Source: a virus | DNA length: 64,000 bases | IMG/VR virus record: IMGVR_UViG_3300047300_000657 | Coordinates: 3,929-67,928 of that record | Direction: 5' to 3' (one strand) | Shown: positions 23,230-36,248 of the stretch, piece by piece | Numbering within the stretch: the first letter of the stretch is position 1 | Layout: the number at the start of each line of letters is the position of its first letter | The notes under the pieces: generated by a model | Databases searched by the model: none | Told to the model about the DNA's origin: nothing | What the model saw: the letters and a program-made list of their open reading frames with translations, nothing else | Position numbers and translations under genes: made by a program

Positions 23230-23268
23230 TTATTCTCCGTTGTTAAGAACTATATACACATATAGTTG

Positions 23269-23340
23269 TAGCCCTACAGGGAATTGAACCCTGCTTTACA
23301 GGTTGAAAACCTGTTGTCCTGACCACTAGACGATAGGGCC
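23269..23340 (-). tRNA. tRNA-Glu(TTC)
   Basis: cloverleaf; ACAGG-TTTTCAA-CCTGT. Confidence 0.9.
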
Positions 23341-23350
23341 ATAAGTATTA

Positions 23351-23379
23351 ATTTTACTATTTTAAAATATGATTGTCAA
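23351..23379 (-). promoter_or_regulatory. promoter for tRNA-Glu and ahpC
   Basis: TTGACA-17 nt-TAAAAT. Confidence 0.65.
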
Positions 23380-23456
23380 TGGTGCTCCATGTAAGACTTG
23401 AACTTACAACATCCAGATTCTAAGTCTGGCGCCTCTACCAATTGGACTAATGGAGC
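23380..23456 (-). tRNA. tRNA-Leu(TAG), short variable loop, encoded CCA
   Basis: CCAGA-CTTAGAA-TCTGG. Confidence 0.88.
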
Positions 23457-23460
23457 CTTG

Positions 23461-23531
23461 CTCTTCCCCCTGGATTCGAACCAAGATTGCCTGAGCCAAA
23501 ATCAGGAGTCCTACCGTTGGACGAAGGAAGA
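23461..23531 (-). tRNA. tRNA-Gln(TTG)
   Basis: CCTGA-TTTTGGC-TCAGG. Confidence 0.88.
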
Positions 23532-23532
23532 A

Positions 23533-23623
23533 TGGCGGAAGGTGGGAGAGTCGAACTCCCAAGGGCTTTAACACCTCGACTGTTTTCAAGACAGCTGCCG
23601 TCGCCAATCGGACTTGACCTTCC
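23533..23623 (-). tRNA. tRNA-Ser(TGA), encoded CCA
   Basis: GCTGT-CTTGAAA-ACAGT; long variable arm. Confidence 0.9.
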
Positions 23624-23627
23624 TTAG

Positions 23628-23707
23628 TGCCACACCTTGGGATCGAACCAAGCATGTCTTAGACGACGGATTTACAGTCCGCTGCCCCACCCTGGGGCTT
23701 GTGTGAC
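23628..23707 (-). tRNA. tRNA-Tyr(GTA)
   Basis: GCGGA-CTGTAAA-TCCGT; variable arm. Confidence 0.88.
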
Positions 23708-23709
23708 GG

Positions 23710-23780
23710 GGTGACCTGTGGGAATTGAACCCACACGTGCTGGACCACAACCAGCCGCTCTACCATTGAGCTAAGGCCAC
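23710..23780 (-). tRNA. tRNA-His(GTG), no encoded G-1
   Basis: GCTGG-TTGTGGT-CCAGC; C73. Confidence 0.9.
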
Positions 23781-23782
23781 GG

Positions 23783-23855
23783 TGGAAACAGTAGGAATCG
23801 AACCTACGACATTCTGTGTGTAAGACAGACGCTCTACTCTCTGAGCTATGCTTCC
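23783..23855 (-). tRNA. tRNA-Val(TAC)
   Basis: TCTGT-CTTACAC-ACAGA. Confidence 0.9.
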
Positions 23856-23859
23856 TGAG

Positions 23860-23932
23860 TCTGATTAGAAGGACTTGAACCTTCGGCCTCCTGCTCCCAA
23901 AGCAGGCGTTCTACCAACTGAACTATAACCAG
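23860..23932 (-). tRNA. tRNA-Pro(TGG)
   Basis: CCTGC-TTTGGGA-GCAGG. Confidence 0.9.
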
Positions 23933-23933
23933 G

Positions 23934-24005
23934 CGAAGACGGTAGGAATCGAACCCACTCCAGGAGGTTTGGAAGCTCCTGTGCTAACCATTACACTACG
24001 TCGAC
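23934..24005 (-). tRNA. tRNA-Trp(CCA) with acceptor- and anticodon-stem mismatches
   Basis: GGAGC-TTCCAAA-CCTCC; G73. Confidence 0.75.
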
Positions 24006-24006
24006 G

Positions 24007-24079
24007 AGCCCAATATCAGATTCGAACTGATGACCCTCCGCTTACAAGGCGGATGCTCTAGCCACTGAGCTAATCGGGC
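24007..24079 (-). tRNA. tRNA-Thr(TGT)
   Basis: TCCGC-CTTGTAA-GCGGA. Confidence 0.9.
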
Positions 24080-24096
24080 GGTGATCTTACGATCAG

Positions 24097-24168
24097 TGGG
24101 AAATCTAGGAATCGAACCTAGTACTTATGTTCTTCAGACATACGCTTTACCTTTTAAGCTAATATCCC
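24097..24168 (-). tRNA. tRNA-Phe(GAA)
   Basis: TATGT-CTGAAGA-ACATA. Confidence 0.87.
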
Positions 24169-24169
24169 G

Positions 24170-24243
24170 TAGAGATAAATGGATTTGAACCATTGACCTT
24201 CTGTGTATCAGACAGATGCTCTAACCAACTGAGCTATACCTCT
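24170..24243 (-). tRNA. tRNA-Ile(GAT)
   Basis: TCTGT-CTGATAC-ACAGA. Confidence 0.9.
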
Positions 24244-24244
24244 G

Positions 24245-24318
24245 CACCCAAAACAGGATTCGAACCTGTGACCCTCTCGTTCGTAGCGAGATGCTCTATT
24301 CCGCTGAGCTACATGGGT
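24245..24318 (-). tRNA. tRNA-Arg(ACG)
   Basis: TCTCG-CTACGAA-CGAGA. Confidence 0.88.
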
Positions 24319-24320
24319 AT

Positions 24321-24359
24321 AAACAAAAATCGGGCTAAATTTTTCAATTTGCCCGATTT
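24321..24359 (-). terminator. intrinsic terminator (attenuator) immediately 5' of tRNA-Arg(ACG)
   Basis: AAATCGGGC-loop-GCCCGATTT followed by TTGTTT. Confidence 0.75.
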
Positions 24360-24382
24360 GGTTTTATATATATAAAACTATT

Positions 24383-24475
24383 TCAGACAACACTTCCAAT
24401 AAACCAGACTGTTGACGGTAGCACAAAATGCCCACGTTGAGATGTGGTCTGATATGATCGAAGTGTTGCTTTCAT
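24383..24475 (-). CDS. 30-aa leaderless leader peptide of the distal tRNA block (not in ORF track)
   Basis: MKATLRSYQTTSQRGHFVLPSTVWFIGSVV; ATG 7 nt after the -10 box. Confidence 0.65.
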   Translation of the reverse strand: MKATLRSYQTTSQRGHFVLPSTVWFIGSVV

Positions 24476-24482
24476 AGTGTAT

Positions 24483-24511
24483 ATACTACCATTTCTTTTT
24501 TATATGTGCAA
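24483..24511 (-). promoter_or_regulatory. promoter of leader peptide / distal tRNA block
   Basis: TTGCAC-17 nt-TAGTAT with extended TGG. Confidence 0.65.
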
Positions 24512-24747: not shown

Positions 24748-24927
24748 ATGTGTGAGCAATGTATTGACTAGTACATTCTCACCGACTCTTTTCTTCAACA
24801 CCTGCGAGTAACAGCAACTGTGTGTCATTGTCATACACTAAAGGCAGAGTTAATGCCGTCACCAATTCGGGGCTGGTCCTACATATCTTATTCACGATTG
24901 ATATAACCGAGTGTTAGTCACTACACT
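24748..24927 (-). ncRNA. candidate ~180-nt structured ncRNA between tRNA-Gly and tRNA-Asp
   Basis: six or more hairpins; complementary terminal loops TGACTA/TAGTCA; no credible ORF. Confidence 0.55.
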
Positions 24928-25166: not shown

Positions 25167-25238
25167 CGCCCCTAGAAGGATTCGAACCTCCGACCAAACG
25201 GGTAGAAACCGTTGACTCTTCCGCTGAGCTATAAGGGC
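25167..25238 (-). tRNA. tRNA-Arg(TCT)
   Basis: AACGG-TTTCTAC-CCGTT. Confidence 0.87.
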
Positions 25239-25251
25239 TTATTAGTATACA

Positions 25252-25536
25252 CTATTCTTCTAATTCTATCAAGCCTAATTCTTTAGCTACTCTTTTACCT
25301 TCTTCGCTTAATTCCATGTGTGCTTCTAAGTTTTCATCATATTCGATATCAAGTAAACCTTTTTCAAATAAATCAACGAGTGTTGCATCTACAAAGCTTG
25401 TGTGCGCTTCCCACAACTCTGGTGCAATTTCTTGAGCAATTGGATCTATTGTAAATATAAATTCGCCACTTTCATCTACGCCAGAAACTTTAATGACACC
25501 CATGTCGATGTACATATTTAGAAGCTCGTCGTCCAT
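25252..25536 (-). CDS. acidic hypothetical protein
   Basis: 94-aa ORF with AGGAGG RBS right after a tRNA. Confidence 0.75.
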   Translation of the reverse strand: MDDELLNMYIDMGVIKVSGVDESGEFIFTIDPIAQEIAPELWEAHTSFVDATLVDLFEKGLLDIEYDENLEAHMELSEEGKRVAKELGLIELEE

Positions 25537-25646: not shown

Positions 25647-25883
25647 TTAAATGTCCTTGTCAATAGTAGTTTCAACAGCTTGTTGAACATACTCAGAAAA
25701 ATGTTTTCTTATGCTACCCATAGGCCTTTTGCCGTATGAGTTCCATAATCTTTTATATTCAATAATATTGTAGTATGTTGTTGGACATACCACATCTCCA
25801 TTATACTCTTTCATTACTGTTGGTAGTGGAACATGCTTTGTGCAACATTTACATGCTTTTGCTTGCTCTTGGTATTCACTCAT
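25647..25883 (-). CDS. hypothetical protein
   Basis: 78 aa; CKCC..H...CP; ATGA overlap with terminase. Confidence 0.7.
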   Translation of the reverse strand: MSEYQEQAKACKCCTKHVPLPTVMKEYNGDVVCPTTYYNIIEYKRLWNSYGKRPMGSIRKHFSEYVQQAVETTIDKDI

Positions 25884-27679
25884 AGTATCTGCATCCTGTC
25901 CATTGATTCTCTTAAATGTTCTGGCATTTTTGGTGGCCTAATCATGTTGTAATGATGAGTTTCTCCGTCTGCCTTTCCAAAATCATCTTCAAGAGATATT
26001 GACTCATATGTATGTATGTTTATCTCTTGATTCAAATCTGGCCTTGTTCTGCTAATTGCATTAAATATAGATCCGCATACTGCGTCTGCAAGGTCTTTAG
26101 AACCCTTTCTTGGGTGATCTACTTTATCCCTCATAATTTTTAACTGCAATAATTCATCAATAAGCAAAGGAATATACGGACCAGATAATCTTTCTTCTAA
26201 TACAACCATCGCCATGTCGTCGTAATGTTTTTTTGCTACTGATAAAATTTCTGTATTAATCCCGTACTGTTTAAGTTGCTGCATCATGTCATGAGAGTTC
26301 CATCGGTCAAATGTACATATTCTAATTTTAAACCCTGCAGTTCTTAGTGCAAGAATATAATCTTTTACTTCTGTAAAGTCTACAGATTTGTCTGGTGTTG
26401 GAGTCCAATATCTGACTGCATCAACCTCTACAATTGGTGCTGGTTGAGAATACGAATCAGTCACTTTTACATTAACCCATTTTTGAACATGTGCAAGGGA
26501 TACTGCACAATGGTCATGTTTTTGTGCAAGGTCGACATGTATAAAATATTCTTTATCTGGATCTGGAGCAAACCATGGTTCAAGTCTGCCAAACGAATCT
26601 ACTGCTAAAGCTGTGTTGTTAAAAGCTTTTTCAATCTTCTCACGTGATTTAAAGAAAGCATCAATCATTTCAGGAGGCATACAGGCAAATCTACCTAATG
26701 CGTCTGGCATATTTTTATAAAATTCAACTTTGTAATCTTCAATTTTTTTAGTAGGGTTTACTTCCCAAGAAGGTCTTTTAACTGCATATACTTTAGGTAT
26801 AGCATAAGATATTATATGGTCCTCTTCCCACTCAACAACTACCTCGTTTCCTGGGGTACCGTCTGGAAGATCCTCGTCCATTTTTAATGTAGCAACTCTA
26901 ATAATTGTTTCTTTGTCTGCTATAACTGAATCATAAAATTTTTGAATAGGATCATTTTTAAAACGAGGGAAGGAAAGCAGTATAACTTTGCCGTAATCTG
27001 GAAAACGAGAAATTACTGATGCACGATACATATCATATATAGCATCAGCTGTTTTTGCCTGATCGTGTCCTGTTGTGTTCTCGATTGCAAATCCTGAAAT
27101 TTCATCAAGGATTACAGCAATAACGTTATATCCTTCCCAAGCTTCTCTTTGAGAGTGACCTGAGTGTACTGTTATGCTCTTATCAAATTTAATTTCTGAA
27201 GCTTTTGCTTCATACTTACCTACAAACCATGGACATCTGTCAACACGTGTTTTAAATCCTTTAAAGAAAACATTGTTTGCTTGTTGTGCGTTAATAGCAA
27301 TATTTAGAATATCGATTGTATCGCCTGGTGGTTTTCCATAGTAGGTTGCTGGATCTTTTAAACATAACAAAAGATAAACCATATACGATACTGAAATAGT
27401 AGCCGTGTAGTCTTTTCCAGAGCCCTTGCCAAGCTGAGCAATTACTTCATTGCATGTTTGCTTAAACATGCGCTTTCCCTCTTCTTCTCCGAACAGTTTA
27501 ACCAGGGTTGATTCTTTATATATCTGAGAAGACTTTTCAATAAGAGTATATTGGTAATCAGATAAAGGGGGAAGTCCTAAATAGTCTGGGCTTGTTACAA
27601 ATGTACGTAGATCTACTGGACGTTCATCAAATTCTTCACCGTCTAATATATCTATAAAATCATTAAAACTAAGACTCAT
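25880..27679 (-). CDS. terL: terminase large subunit
   Basis: GKGSGKD Walker A, ILDE Walker B, HVDLA..HD, FDRWNS, DHP..GSKDLADA. Confidence 0.92.
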   Translation of the reverse strand: MSLSFNDFIDILDGEEFDERPVDLRTFVTSPDYLGLPPLSDYQYTLIEKSSQIYKESTLVKLFGEEEGKRMFKQTCNEVIAQLGKGSGKDYTATISVSYMVYLLLCLKDPATYYGKPPGDTIDILNIAINAQQANNVFFKGFKTRVDRCPWFVGKYEAKASEIKFDKSITVHSGHSQREAWEGYNVIAVILDEISGFAIENTTGHDQAKTADAIYDMYRASVISRFPDYGKVILLSFPRFKNDPIQKFYDSVIADKETIIRVATLKMDEDLPDGTPGNEVVVEWEEDHIISYAIPKVYAVKRPSWEVNPTKKIEDYKVEFYKNMPDALGRFACMPPEMIDAFFKSREKIEKAFNNTALAVDSFGRLEPWFAPDPDKEYFIHVDLAQKHDHCAVSLAHVQKWVNVKVTDSYSQPAPIVEVDAVRYWTPTPDKSVDFTEVKDYILALRTAGFKIRICTFDRWNSHDMMQQLKQYGINTEILSVAKKHYDDMAMVVLEERLSGPYIPLLIDELLQLKIMRDKVDHPRKGSKDLADAVCGSIFNAISRTRPDLNQEINIHTYESISLEDDFGKADGETHHYNMIRPPKMPEHLRESMDRMQIL

Positions 27680-35900: not shown

Positions 35901-36248
35901 AAAGCCTTCGTTCCATGCAATTTCTTGTAATGTGTTTATGTTTGACAGACCTACTTTATTCTTAGCAAGAAGGATGATGTGGTTGTAAGCTTGAATTGAT
36001 TTATCTGTTTTTGAAGACTTGTCAAATCTATCTGTTGGAGAAATGTATGCTTCTACGCCGAGGATAGGCTTGATGCCTAATTCTTTTGCTGCTATTTGCA
36101 TATCACGATGTGAAGACAATGTTCCATGATCTGTAATTGCAATTGCAGTTTGACCAGCATCTAGCGCTGCTTGGCATAGTTCTCGTGGAGAATTTAATCC
36201 ATCCATTAAACTATAATAACTATGTACGTGTAGGTGTGTGAAACTCAT
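32979..36248 (-). CDS. dnaE: DNA polymerase III alpha subunit (DnaE-type)
   Basis: PHP HLHVHSYYSLMDG, TDHG, GPGRGSAAGSLV, PDIDTDF, YSFNRSH. Confidence 0.96.
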   Translation of the reverse strand: MSFTHLHVHSYYSLMDGLNSPRELCQAALDAGQTAIAITDHGTLSSHRDMQIAAKELGIKPILGVEAYISPTDRFDKSSKTDKSIQAYNHIILLAKNKVGLSNINTLQEIAWNEGFYHKPRIDREVLKEYAEGIIVLSGCLNGLISKAIERGEFSEAKMVLKDFQKTFGEDFYVEVQSHNPEEINLKLLELADELGIKAVATGDAHFAKGEDKVLEEAMLILSTNPKMDKDADFEMSRNMNDMLDRFNYLYPDRKISFQDYNLFIQSRAEIEADFNEVGITRTDIYENTVEIANKIGEYDFNSNLDLLPVPKTNADKKLSEMASEGLKRLGLDKNEVYTDRLNEELSVIKDKKFASYFLVVADMINWAKDNNIKVGPGRGSAAGSLVCYSLGITDVDPIKYDLLFFRFINPERNDFPDIDTDFEDRRRKEVKDYLKKKFKHVASISTFTYFKDKGVVRDAARVFMVPLQDVNRALKQVDTFEDFMESPNTKEFRAKYPEVIWLAERLRGRIRSVGVHAAGVVVAKDDIRKYAPVESREDAQDKVSGRIPVVAYDMDTVADIGLIKLDALGLKTLSVISDTLKSIKERTGRDINLSELPLDDANVYKMLNEGYTKGIFQAEATPYTNLLIKMGVDKFEDLAASNALVRPGAMKTVGDSYIKRKQGQQDITYTHPIMKPFTENTYGVIIYQEQVMQACVHLGGMTWSEADKVRKIIGKKKDAREFDQFKDKFIDGASKHISKKQAETLWHMFEAHAGYSFNRSHAVAYSMLSYYTAWLKSYYPLEFMFSVLKNENDKDARTEYLIEAKRLGLKVLLPHVNESDVYFSLKDNAIRFGLAEVKYISDNIANKIIDARPFKSYAEFTEVASKKGSGINSRAIQALNSIGGCAFKDNERSGNEKDNYYEYLGIPAFNLDGIPPRIKAQARPIEDFDDLGSFVMFGMVKSIKRGTGWARVELVDETGSIGLFHNEQTQIEPGQMYFILVGDNRISRYVKVSDINPDSEDLFVKYLYQKQYDLSEDEYMVINFTPYQTKAGKTMSHIVMTNKDKELIRAIAFPTMYKQTLARMREGMKCKPVLSKLDDGTLNIKEIK

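What the first reader, a model, noticed from the sequence alone, without database searches (positions are those of the whole stretch)
24319..24511. Candidate tRNA-depletion-sensing attenuator gating a 12-tRNA phage operon
Seen on the minus strand: promoter TTGCAC-17-TAGTAT, then a leaderless 30-codon ORF (MKATLRSYQTTSQRGHFVLPSTVWFIGSVV), then an intrinsic terminator ending a few nt before tRNA-Arg(ACG). The leader offers classic alternative pairings. 1:2 is GCAACACTTC..ATCAGAC with GTCTGGT..GAAGTGTTGT. 2:3 is GTCTGGTTT with the terminator 5' arm AAATCGGGC (9 pairs, 3 G.U). 3:4 is the terminator. The peptide contains codons readable by all 12 tRNAs behind the terminator (Arg CGA/CGT, Ile, Phe, Thr ACA, Trp, Pro, Val, His, Tyr, Ser TCA, Gln, Leu CTA). 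It has no Asp, Asn, Glu or internal Met, whose tRNAs lie upstream or, for Glu, behind a separate TTGACA/TAAAAT promoter. Established: trp/his-type attenuation, and host anticodon nucleases that phage tRNAs can compensate. Inference: a multi-amino-acid sensor that turns on backup tRNAs only when ribosomes stall. Caveat: the Trp/Phe/Ile codons lie inside segment 2, so stalls there would not antiterminate in the simple model.
Basis: partly seen in the sequence, partly recalled or inferred. Interest (0 to 1): 0.92.

Follow-up and report, generated by a model that had tools for sequence, protein, structure and literature searches.

The report
Conserved leader-ORF attenuator before phage tRNA block
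A short promoter, 30-codon reading frame and terminator sit directly in front of a block of phage tRNA genes and recur in three related phages, with a codon set that matches the tRNAs behind it, so it may be a switch that makes tRNAs on demand.

Summary
The promoter, 30-codon ORF, long 1:2 hairpin and terminator 2 nt before tRNA-Arg(ACG) are all present as described. The window is an uncultured phage of about 37% GC; its terminase is closest to those of Streptomyces and Gordonia phages.

I found three homologues of the leader (L162, L163, L167). Each sits directly in front of the same Arg(ACG)-led tRNA block, although the upstream tRNA differs. All four keep:
- the promoter, with TTG and the -10 TA...T invariant;
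- an ATG 6-7 nt after the -10, the leaderless geometry that four long genes of this phage also show;
- the reading frame, including an in-frame 3-nt deletion;
- the outer helix, with 2 compensatory pairs;
- the terminator.

Every downstream tRNA has a cognate codon in every leader (12/13, 12/12, 12/12, 10/10). This occurs in 1 of 1619 windows of real ORFs. In L167, tRNA-Tyr and tRNA-Leu(TAG) lie upstream of the leader, and its peptide has no TAY or CTR codon.

A different antiterminator, the stop-codon region pairing with the terminator's 5' arm, is available in all four.

Function is untested. I put a ribosome-mediated attenuator at about 0.45. Sensing of host tRNA cleavage is pure inference.

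The parts
24506..24511 (-). -35 hexamer TTGCAC, starting directly after the 3' end of tRNA-Ser(GCT)
   Evidence: Read. TTGCA is invariant in 4 of 4 homologues. In all four the module begins exactly here, whatever tRNA lies upstream.
24483..24488 (-). -10 hexamer TAGTAT, 17 nt after the -35
   Evidence: The homologues have TATTAT, TATACT and TATGAT. T1, A2 and T6 are invariant and the middle positions vary. Other promoters of this phage have TAGAAT or TAGGAT.
24383..24475 (-). Leaderless 30-codon ORF plus its stop codon (MKATLRSYQTTSQRGHFVLPSTVWFIGSVV*)
   Evidence: Start, stop and frame are kept in 4 of 4, including an in-frame 3-nt deletion in L167. Window versus L163: 7 of 8 differences fall at third codon positions (p = 0.0026) and pN/pS is 0.12.
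24457..24469 (-). 5' arm of the outer 1:2 helix (transcript nt 7-19)
   Evidence: In the MFE. The helix has 13 pairs with 98.1% of cells paired, 2 compensatory pairs, 2 G.U-to-G-C changes and 1 broken cell.
24387..24400 (-). 3' arm of the outer 1:2 helix (transcript nt 76-89), covering the last codons of the ORF
24383..24390 (-). 5' strand UUGUCUGA of the alternative antiterminator proposed here (AT'); it includes the stop codon and overlaps the 1:2 helix by 4 nt
   Evidence: It pairs with 24349-24356. 32 of 32 cells are paired in the 4 sequences, and 2 one-sided changes keep their pairs. 7-8 of 8 pairs form in all four when nt 1-30 are masked and the 3' arm of the terminator is absent; only 4 of 8 form without the mask. 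This is inference and is not above chance on energy.
24361..24378 (-). Small A/U hairpin GUUUUAU-loop-AUAAAAC between the ORF and the terminator
   Evidence: In the MFE of all four sequences. The stem is invariant and the loop has a 1-nt indel.
24327..24359 (-). Intrinsic terminator hairpin (9 + 5 pairs, one bulge, GAAA loop)
   Evidence: -15.2 kcal/mol in the window and -14.8 to -15.2 in the homologues. 3 of 41 columns vary, counting the U-tract.
24319..24326 (-). Rest of the U-tract (UUGUUUAU), ending at the base before tRNA-Arg
   Evidence: Invariant in 4 of 4.
23380..24318 (-). Block of 12 tRNA genes: Arg(ACG), Ile(GAT), Phe, Thr(TGT), Trp, Pro(TGG), Val(TAC), His, Tyr, Ser(TGA), Gln(TTG), Leu(TAG)
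   Evidence: ARAGORN and Rfam. The same block, 84-91.5% identical over Arg to His, follows the leader in L162, L163 and L167.
23268..23379 (-). Separate promoter TTGACA-17-TAAAAT and tRNA-Glu(TTC); not part of the controlled block
   Evidence: In L162 the same promoter is present without tRNA-Glu. No leader has a Glu codon.

Best explanation
The 193-nt spacer is the 5' control region of the Arg(ACG)-led tRNA block. It has its own promoter, which starts transcription at or next to the A of an ATG. The resulting leaderless 30-codon leader ORF is followed by an intrinsic terminator that every transcript must pass to reach the tRNAs.

I propose ribosome-mediated attenuation.
- With no ribosome, or once the ribosome has left, the strong 1:2 helix (about -27 to -33 kcal/mol) holds the ORF's 3' end, the terminator forms, and transcription stops 2 nt before tRNA-Arg.
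- A ribosome that lingers in the ORF opens 1:2. The last codons plus the stop codon (UUGUCUGA) can then pair with the terminator's 5' arm (UCGGGCAA) across the small A/U hairpin. That delays the terminator and lets RNA polymerase run into the tRNA block.
- The leader holds at least one codon for each tRNA of the block. Slow decoding of any of them would therefore raise synthesis of the whole block, which is demand-driven feedback.

Shown here: the parts, their conservation, the leaderless geometry, the rarity of the codon cover and its tracking. Inferred: translation of the ORF, the antiterminator pairing, and any response to tRNA supply.
For: **Linkage to the block.** There are four members (window, L162, L163, L167). 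In each the module starts at the -35 right after a different upstream tRNA (Ser, Glu, Glu, Tyr) and ends at tRNA-Arg(ACG) of the same block. A covariance model finds no further copy in the other 162 loci. There is one copy per record in the three records that could be searched.

**Promoter.** TTGCA, the 17-nt spacing and TA...T of the -10 are invariant while the middle -10 positions vary.

**Leaderless design.** Of 10 TTG/TAnnnT promoters lying 0-39 nt before the ATG of the window's 80 long minus-strand ORFs, 4 have the -10 exactly 6-7 nt before the ATG (binomial p = 0.001). The leader has the same geometry.

**Coding signal.** Window versus L163 has 8 differences, 7 at third codon positions (p = 0.0026), and pN/pS is 0.12 (Fisher p = 0.004). 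L163 was also recovered by ORF-independent patterns. The 3-nt deletion in L167 is in frame.

**RNA structure.** The outer helix has 2 compensatory pairs. These change the amino acids (L5S, S28D) but keep the pairing. The 64-nt stretch from after the stop codon to tRNA-Arg is 90.6-100% identical, against 84-91.5% for the tRNA block.

**Codon cover under strict wobble.** Downstream tRNAs with a cognate codon number 12/13, 12/12, 12/12 and 10/10. Upstream tRNAs number 2/6, 3/8, 3/9 and 6/12. Full cover of the 12 occurs in 1 of 1619 real-ORF windows and in 1-2 of 778 ATG-started windows.

**Tracking in L167.** The ORF has diverged by 24-25 nt yet still covers all 10 downstream tRNAs. Neutral simulation gives P = 1.1-1.8% for that. 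His and Phe are kept through swapped positions. TAY and CTR codons are absent, and the homologues of tRNA-Tyr and tRNA-Leu(TAG) lie upstream (P = 12%; joint P = 0.2-0.3%).

**Antiterminator AT'.** All 32 cells are paired. 7-8 of 8 pairs form in all four sequences only when segment 1 is masked.

**No other route.** There is no room for a promoter between the terminator and tRNA-Arg (2 nt), and the scanner finds none there.
Against: - There are no expression, 5'-end, 3'-end or ribosome data. The one read-laying run held DNA contigs only.
- There are only four members, and three of them are close. L162 was found with a pattern that demands a conserved peptide, which is ascertainment bias.
- The differences private to L167 fall 8/7/7 over the codon positions, and its pN/pS against the others is 0.72-0.77 and not significant. 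That lineage therefore gives no coding signal.
- Other frames of the spacer are about as open as the ORF, with stretches of 24-51 codons.
- In every full-length fold, with a ribosome mask at any codon, the terminator still forms. AT' is weaker (-10.8 to -12.3 kcal/mol against -15) and its energy is not above chance: 15% of shuffles give an equal duplex. It has no compensatory change.
- Each tRNA is represented by only 1-4 codons, with no runs as in the classical attenuators.
- A stall at mid-ORF codons (about 13-22, which include His and Pro in the window) need not open 1:2. This is my own estimate of ribosome geometry.
- Relatives also have terminators abutting tRNAs behind a manA RNA, so a terminator in front of tRNAs is not unique to this element.
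- The codon coincidence was the reason the finding was picked from a very large scan, which weakens its p-value.
Confidence: 0.45

Rival explanations
1. An autonomous small gene cassette ('moron' layout: promoter, leaderless 30-aa peptide gene, terminator) that travels next to the tRNA block. The peptide has a function of its own. The tRNAs are made by whatever read-through the terminator allows, and the codon match is coincidence.
For: Promoter, ORF and terminator form a complete unit. There is purifying selection on the peptide among the close members, with pN/pS of 0.12. Relatives show that terminators can abut tRNAs behind another element, manA RNA. The codon coincidence is what drew attention to this spot in the first place.
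Against: Full cover of the 12 tRNAs occurs in 1 of 1619 real-ORF windows. It is kept in L167 despite 24-25 substitutions (P = 1-2%). Helix-preserving double changes alter the peptide. L167 shows no constraint on amino acids. The stretch from after the stop codon to the tRNA is at least as conserved as the tRNAs themselves. No small-protein relatives turned up: the search gave 2 hits, both long repetitive proteins.
Confidence: 0.2
2. A translation-coupled attenuator that does not read the 12 tRNAs individually. It might report general translation capacity, or the nascent peptide (conserved ...VPS.VW.IG.V) might arrest the ribosome in response to some other signal.
For: It has the same architecture as the best explanation. 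18 of 29 residues are identical in L167 and cluster in two blocks. There is purifying selection in the close members. Each tRNA has only single codons, which would make a weak sensor.
Against: It leaves unexplained the full codon cover, its retention through swapped His and Phe positions, and the loss of Tyr and CTR codons in L167.
Confidence: 0.15
3. A non-coding structured RNA (a long hairpin, a small hairpin and a terminator) made from its own promoter or released by RNase P. The open frame is incidental.
For: The fold has z = -5.35. There are 2 compensatory pairs. Other frames are similarly open. L167 shows no codon-position bias. Structured RNAs do occur in these arrays: manA in relatives and a 180-nt spacer in the window.
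Against: Window versus L163 has 7 of 8 differences at third positions (p = 0.0026). The ATG, the stop codon and the frame are kept, with an in-frame deletion. The ATG sits at the leaderless distance from the -10, as in four long genes. There is no Rfam match at E up to 1 in the window or up to 0.1 in the homologues.
Confidence: 0.1
4. A junction relic left when a foreign tRNA block was inserted, with no function.
For: The block and spacer are absent from 160 loci of relatives. These include three loci whose downstream gene is 98% identical yet which carry only 5 tRNAs.
Against: The element is conserved in four phages, with a maintained promoter, frame, helix and terminator.
Confidence: 0.03

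Closest known systems
Multivalent leader-peptide attenuators of enterobacterial amino-acid operons (ilvGMEDA: Leu/Val/Ile; thr: Thr/Ile) and the trp/his type (recalled knowledge, not read here)
   Same: A promoter-proximal short ORF, a strong upstream helix, a terminator just before the structural genes, and a possible alternative pairing that overlaps the terminator's 5' arm. More than one amino acid is represented in the leader.
   Different: The controlled genes are tRNAs, not biosynthetic enzymes. There are 10-12 specificities with 1-4 scattered codons each instead of runs. The mRNA is leaderless. The element is in a phage. The antiterminator is unproven.
Leader peptides in front of trpE, leuA, ilvB and aroF of Corynebacterium glutamicum
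   Same: They are proposed ribosome-mediated attenuation in an actinobacterium. PMC3890552 (passages read) says these leader peptides were detected by RNA-seq and are possibly involved in attenuation. The likely host phylum of this phage is the same.
   Different: They serve amino-acid biosynthesis operons and are single-amino-acid sensors. That their transcripts are leaderless is my recollection and was not seen in the passages read.
manA RNA motif (Rfam RF01745), a candidate cis-regulatory RNA
   Same: In L167, L163, L003 and L162 a manA RNA lies inside the tRNA array and is followed by a terminator that abuts the next tRNA. This gives the same 'leader plus terminator plus tRNAs' layout in the same phage group.
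   Different: It is a different sequence and fold with no conserved ORF. The leader studied here has no manA match.
T-box riboswitches
   Same: A leader RNA that couples tRNA status to a terminator/antiterminator choice.
   Different: T-boxes bind uncharged tRNA directly, have conserved specifier and T-box sequences, and control aminoacyl-tRNA synthetase and amino-acid genes. No Rfam T-box match was found here.
Phage tRNAs as a counter to tRNA-targeting host defences (PMC10264068, PMC11555353, PMC12409363; only the search listing and the start of each abstract were seen)
   Same: This is the biological setting in which a sensor of tRNA shortage would pay off.
   Different: Those works concern the tRNAs themselves. 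I saw no description there of regulated transcription of a phage tRNA block.

Membership tests
Ribosome-mediated (leader-peptide) transcription attenuator | A short ORF in the transcript between the promoter and the structural genes, conserved as an ORF | tested here: met
   The frame, ATG and stop codon are kept in 4 of 4, with an in-frame deletion. Third-position bias is 7 of 8, p = 0.0026. pN/pS is 0.12. L167 on its own shows no bias.
Ribosome-mediated (leader-peptide) transcription attenuator | An intrinsic terminator between the leader ORF and the first structural gene | tested here: met
   The hairpin is -14.8 to -15.2 kcal/mol and has a U-tract ending 2 nt before tRNA-Arg in 4 of 4.
Ribosome-mediated (leader-peptide) transcription attenuator | An antiterminator pairing that excludes the terminator and is itself excluded by an upstream helix | tested here: inconclusive
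The alternative AT' has 32 of 32 cells paired and forms only when segment 1 is masked. It has no compensatory change and its energy is not above chance.
Ribosome-mediated (leader-peptide) transcription attenuator | A leader peptide enriched in codons of the regulating amino acid(s), usually as runs | tested here: not met
   There are no runs, only 1-4 scattered codons per tRNA. What is seen instead is complete cover of the downstream tRNA set.
Ribosome-mediated (leader-peptide) transcription attenuator | Read-through rises when the cognate charged tRNA is scarce | not testable with these tools
   This needs reporter or Term-seq experiments.
Leaderless mRNA | Transcription start at or within 1-2 nt of the start codon, with no Shine-Dalgarno sequence | tested here: inconclusive
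   The -10 ends 6-7 nt before the ATG in 4 of 4, the same geometry as four long genes. No 5'-end data are available.
T-box riboswitch (RF00230) | A match to the covariance model (specifier loop, T-box sequence) | tested here: not met
   No match in the leader at E up to 1 in the window or up to 0.1 in L162, L163 and L167.
manA RNA (RF01745) | A match to the covariance model | tested here: not met
   No match in the leader. The matches lie elsewhere in the arrays of the relatives.
Rho-independent terminator | A G+C-containing hairpin directly followed by a U-tract | tested here: met
   The simple scanner missed it because its loop limit is 8 nt and it does not extend the stem through the bulge.

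The most novel reading that the evidence does not exclude
The leader peptide is a many-channel sensor for the very tRNAs it controls, with one or a few codons per tRNA of the block. Slow decoding of any of them switches the whole backup tRNA block on, whether the cause is codon mismatch with the host, phage-induced loss of host tRNAs, or a tRNA-cleaving defence. The codon repertoire of the leader co-evolves with the tRNA content of the block, as in L167. This would be the first leader-peptide attenuator of tRNA genes, and a self-tuning tRNA supply circuit in a phage.
Probability: 0.35. Interest if true: 0.9.

Novelty: new variant of a known kind. Interest (0 to 1): 0.8.

Why it matters
Why phages carry large tRNA sets, and when they use them, is still debated. 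The candidate reasons are codon compensation, replacement of degraded host tRNAs, and escape from tRNA-targeting defences.

A cis-acting switch that reads the decoding speed of exactly the codons served by a tRNA block would show that at least some phages make these tRNAs on demand. It would give a compact, portable sensor of tRNA availability. It would also extend leader-peptide attenuation from amino-acid operons to tRNA genes.

The claim can be tested directly with a 200-nt reporter construct.

Tried and rejected
**Searches for homologues that found nothing**
- Megablast and blastn of the array and spacer against cultured phages gave tRNA matches only.
- blastn (word size 7) of the spacer against 80 and then 160 loci of relatives found nothing.
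- These exact or IUPAC patterns in viral contigs had 0 hits: a 38-nt stretch of tRNA-Arg, the terminator arms with N15 between them, and a degenerate pattern for the C-terminal peptide.
- A 20-nt terminator pattern in genome contigs gave 6 hits. All were chance 20-mers with no tRNAs and no further similarity.
- The N-terminal degenerate pattern gave 3 hits, of which 2 (L164, L165) were unrelated.
- The 22-nt tRNA-Arg pattern gave 3 hits, of which L166 is an unrelated phage without the leader or the block.
- Covariance model R1 found only the four members in 167 sources. The weak hits (21.1 and 20.5 bits, E 0.03-0.04, opposite strand or A/T-rich) were not followed up.
- The peptide search of 1.84 billion representatives gave 2 long repetitive proteins, which are not relatives.

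**Other steps that led nowhere**
- The thermodynamic switch test: the terminator forms in every masked full-length fold. I do not count this as decisive, because classical attenuators are kinetic; that point is recalled knowledge.
- Sequencing runs: 14 DNA runs from several studies hold half or more of the sampled words of the 1-kb stretch.
- The four laid DNA runs carry near-identical copies of the leader: records 5, 13, 20 and 29 have 2, 1, 5 and 0 other letters. This shows the leader is not an assembly artefact but gives no variation to use.
- A 201-nt contig in X10 joins tRNA-Leu(TAG) to the end of tRNA-Ser(GCT). With only 28 letters on its shorter side, I treat it as too weak to use.
- Streptomyces phage Gilson: a 29-aa ORF between tRNAs has a Shine-Dalgarno sequence, no U-tract terminator and no codon match. 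It is not an analogue.
- Earlier scan notes held nothing on this element in other DNA.
- Literature: no paper in the listings describes leader-peptide attenuation of tRNA genes. Only listings and abstract starts were seen, plus passages of PMC3890552. Supplementary files were not consulted.
Full report
**What is there**

The window is part of an uncultured-virus record (67.9 kb, about 63% complete) with about 37% G+C. Its large terminase (25880-27679, minus strand) is 60.6-62.5% identical to those of the best-matching cultured phages, all Streptomyces phages, and many Gordonia phages also match. An actinobacterial host is therefore likely; this is inference.

Directly downstream of the terminase lies an array of 21 tRNA genes on the minus strand. 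The finding is the 193-nt gap between tRNA-Ser(GCT) and tRNA-Arg(ACG).

- TTGCAC, 17 nt, TAGTAT, 7 nt, ATG;
- a 30-codon ORF;
- a long helix joining the start and end of the ORF;
- a small A/U hairpin;
- a 9+5-pair hairpin with a U-tract that ends 2 nt before tRNA-Arg.

The transcript folds much better than shuffles (z = -5.35, 0 of 200 shuffles as good). Twelve tRNAs follow, then a strong separate promoter and tRNA-Glu.

**Is it more than chance?**

The claim that the peptide has a codon for each of the 12 tRNAs holds under strict wobble rules, and it is rare:
- 1 of 778 (strict) or 2 of 778 (generous) ATG-started stop-free 30-codon windows of the window, the ORF itself included;
- 1 of 1619 in-frame 29-codon windows of the phage's long ORFs;
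- 0.14-1.2% of stop-free shuffles of the ORF.

It is -7.6 kcal/mol, and 52% of shuffled upstream sequences pair with the terminator arm at least as well. It never forms in folds with ribosome masks or truncated 3' ends.

**Relatives**

160 loci around homologues of the terminase and of the gene downstream of the array have very different and mostly small tRNA arrays. None has the spacer. Three loci whose downstream gene is 98% identical carry only five tRNAs. The spacer plus block is therefore a cassette that only some members of this phage group carry.

Pattern scans then found three homologues:
- L162, via a degenerate peptide pattern in metagenome contigs;
- L163, via a degenerate N-terminal pattern, and independently via a tRNA-Arg pattern and a terminator pattern;
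- L167, via the tRNA-Arg and terminator patterns only, so free of any ORF bias.

In all three the element starts at the -35 directly after the upstream tRNA (Glu, Glu, Tyr) and ends at tRNA-Arg(ACG) of the same block. The leader therefore belongs to the block and not to what lies upstream.

**What is conserved (alignment A1)**

*Promoter.* TTGCA, the 17-nt spacing, and T1, A2 and T6 of the -10 are invariant. The middle -10 positions vary (TAGTAT, TATTAT, TATACT, TATGAT).

*Start.* The ATG follows the -10 by 6 or 7 nt in all four. Four long ORFs of the window (165-1089 aa) have the same promoter-to-ATG geometry. That is 4 of the 10 promoters found 0-39 nt before an ATG (p = 0.001). Leaderless mRNAs therefore look like normal practice in this phage, and the lack of a Shine-Dalgarno sequence is no objection.

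*ORF.* Start, stop and frame are kept, and L167 has an in-frame 3-nt deletion.
- Between the window and L163, 7 of 8 differences lie at third codon positions (p = 0.0026), and pN/pS is 0.12 (Fisher p = 0.004).
- Against this, the differences private to L167 are spread 8/7/7, and its pN/pS is 0.72-0.77 and not significant.
- Other frames of the spacer are about as open as the ORF.

*RNA.* The outer 1:2 helix has 13 pairs with 98.1% of cells paired, two compensatory double changes and two G.U-to-G-C changes. The compensatory changes alter the peptide (L5S, S28D), so in L167 the helix is kept at the cost of the amino-acid sequence. The stretch from after the stop codon to the tRNA is 90.6-100% identical between members, at least as conserved as the tRNA block itself at 84-91.5%.

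**Codon content tracks the tRNAs**

Under strict wobble, every tRNA behind the terminator has a cognate codon in every leader. The counts are 12 of 13 in the window (the exception is tRNA-Glu, which has its own promoter), then 12 of 12, 12 of 12 and 10 of 10. Upstream tRNAs are covered 2 of 6, 3 of 8, 3 of 9 and 6 of 12.

L167 is the informative case. Its block lacks tRNA-Tyr and tRNA-Leu(TAG), whose homologues (84% and 91% identical) lie upstream of the leader. Its peptide has no TAY and no CTR codon. Yet, after 24-25 substitutions in the ORF, it still covers all ten remaining tRNAs. His and Phe are kept through swapped positions, and a new CAG codon matches its tRNA-Gln(CTG).

In a neutral simulation, keeping all ten has P = 1.1-1.8%, losing both Tyr and CTR codons has P = 12%, and the two together have P = 0.2-0.3%. 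This test was made after the finding was selected and so is free of the selection effect. It rests on one lineage and a simple null model.

**Mechanism**

A different candidate, which I call AT', is the last codons plus the stop codon (UUGUCUGA) pairing with the core of the terminator's 5' arm (UCGGGCAA) across the small A/U hairpin.
- It is paired in 32 of 32 cells, and two one-sided changes in L167 keep their pairs.
- It forms with 7-8 of 8 pairs in all four members when the first 30 nt are masked and the terminator's 3' arm is not yet made. Only 4 of 8 pairs form when 1:2 is free to form.
- The energies are -27 to -33 kcal/mol for 1:2, -10.8 to -12.3 for AT' with its hairpin, and about -15 for the terminator. 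This is the order expected of a kinetic trp-type switch; the comparison is recalled knowledge.

AT' is nevertheless my inference. Its energy is not above chance, it has no compensatory change, and in full-length folds the terminator always wins. Stalls at mid-ORF codons might not open 1:2.

**Context**

In relatives, a manA RNA motif (Rfam RF01745: 62.1 bits in L167, above the gathering score of 55.2, and 51.0-54.2 bits in L163, L003 and L162) also sits inside the tRNA arrays. It is followed by a terminator that abuts the next tRNA. This cuts both ways. It shows that a terminator in front of tRNAs is not unique to the leader. It also shows a second candidate cis-regulatory leader in the same position in the same phage group.

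**Verdict**

A ribosome-mediated attenuator whose leader reads the codons served by the block is the best single explanation. I put it at about 0.45.
- Shown: the parts, their conservation, the leaderless geometry, and the codon cover with its tracking.
- Inferred: translation of the ORF, the antiterminator, and the response to tRNA supply.

Rivals are an autonomous small-peptide gene (0.2), a translation-coupled switch that senses something else (0.15), a non-coding RNA (0.1) and a relic (0.03).

The link to host anticodon nucleases is speculation. The background papers on phage tRNAs and tRNA-targeting defences were seen only as listings.

Noticed in passing
L167:4965-5148; L163:6505-6682; L003:4466-4643; L162:3214-3395: manA RNA motifs (Rfam RF01745; 62.1, 54.2, 53.6 and 51.0 bits against a gathering score of 55.2) lie inside phage tRNA arrays. 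Each is followed by an intrinsic terminator that abuts the next tRNA (Gly or Asn), and the terminator stems differ between copies. This may be a second kind of leader-plus-terminator control of tRNA genes.
   Followed up: partly
window ATGs at 36248, 28211, 9441, 8053 (minus strand): Four long ORFs (1089, 180, 379 and 165 aa) have TTGAC-like -35 and TAGAAT/TATAAT/TAGGAT -10 hexamers ending 6-7 nt before the ATG. Leaderless mRNAs therefore seem common in this phage.
   Followed up: partly
window 24748-24927 (minus strand): A 180-nt gap between tRNA-Gly and tRNA-Asp has no ORF of note and no Rfam match at E up to 1. It has no blast match to the relatives' spacers that I looked at.
   Followed up: no
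L003:5259-5387 and L014:11971-12098: A conserved spacer of about 128 nt directly after tRNA-Leu(TAG) occurs in two relatives and is clearly homologous between them. It looks like another unassigned structured RNA in the arrays.
   Followed up: no
window 25244-25272 (minus strand): The promoter TTGATA-17-TATACT ends 5 nt before the mature 5' end of tRNA-Arg(TCT) at 25238. Transcription would therefore start at or next to the first base of the tRNA.
   Followed up: no
L003:5132-5183: The 52-nt gap between tRNA-Ser(GCT) and tRNA-Leu(TAG) holds an extended -10 (TGATATAAT), followed by a hairpin CCTAACA...TGTTAGG plus TTTTT that abuts tRNA-Leu. This is a promoter followed by a terminator-like hairpin with no ORF.
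   Followed up: no
window 23341-23379 versus L162:5112-5140: The same promoter (TTGACAATCATATTTTAAAATAGTAAA...) follows tRNA-Leu(TAG) in both. tRNA-Glu lies behind it only in the window; in L162, L163 and L167 tRNA-Glu lies upstream of the leader. The arrays are reshuffled in cassette-like steps.
   Followed up: partly
L162, L163, L167 leaders: L167 is a mosaic. Its promoter is 94% like that of L162, the stretch from after its stop codon to the tRNA is 100% like L163, but its ORF is only 69-71% like any of the others. This points either to recombination with an unsampled lineage or to fast change of the ORF.
   Followed up: partly
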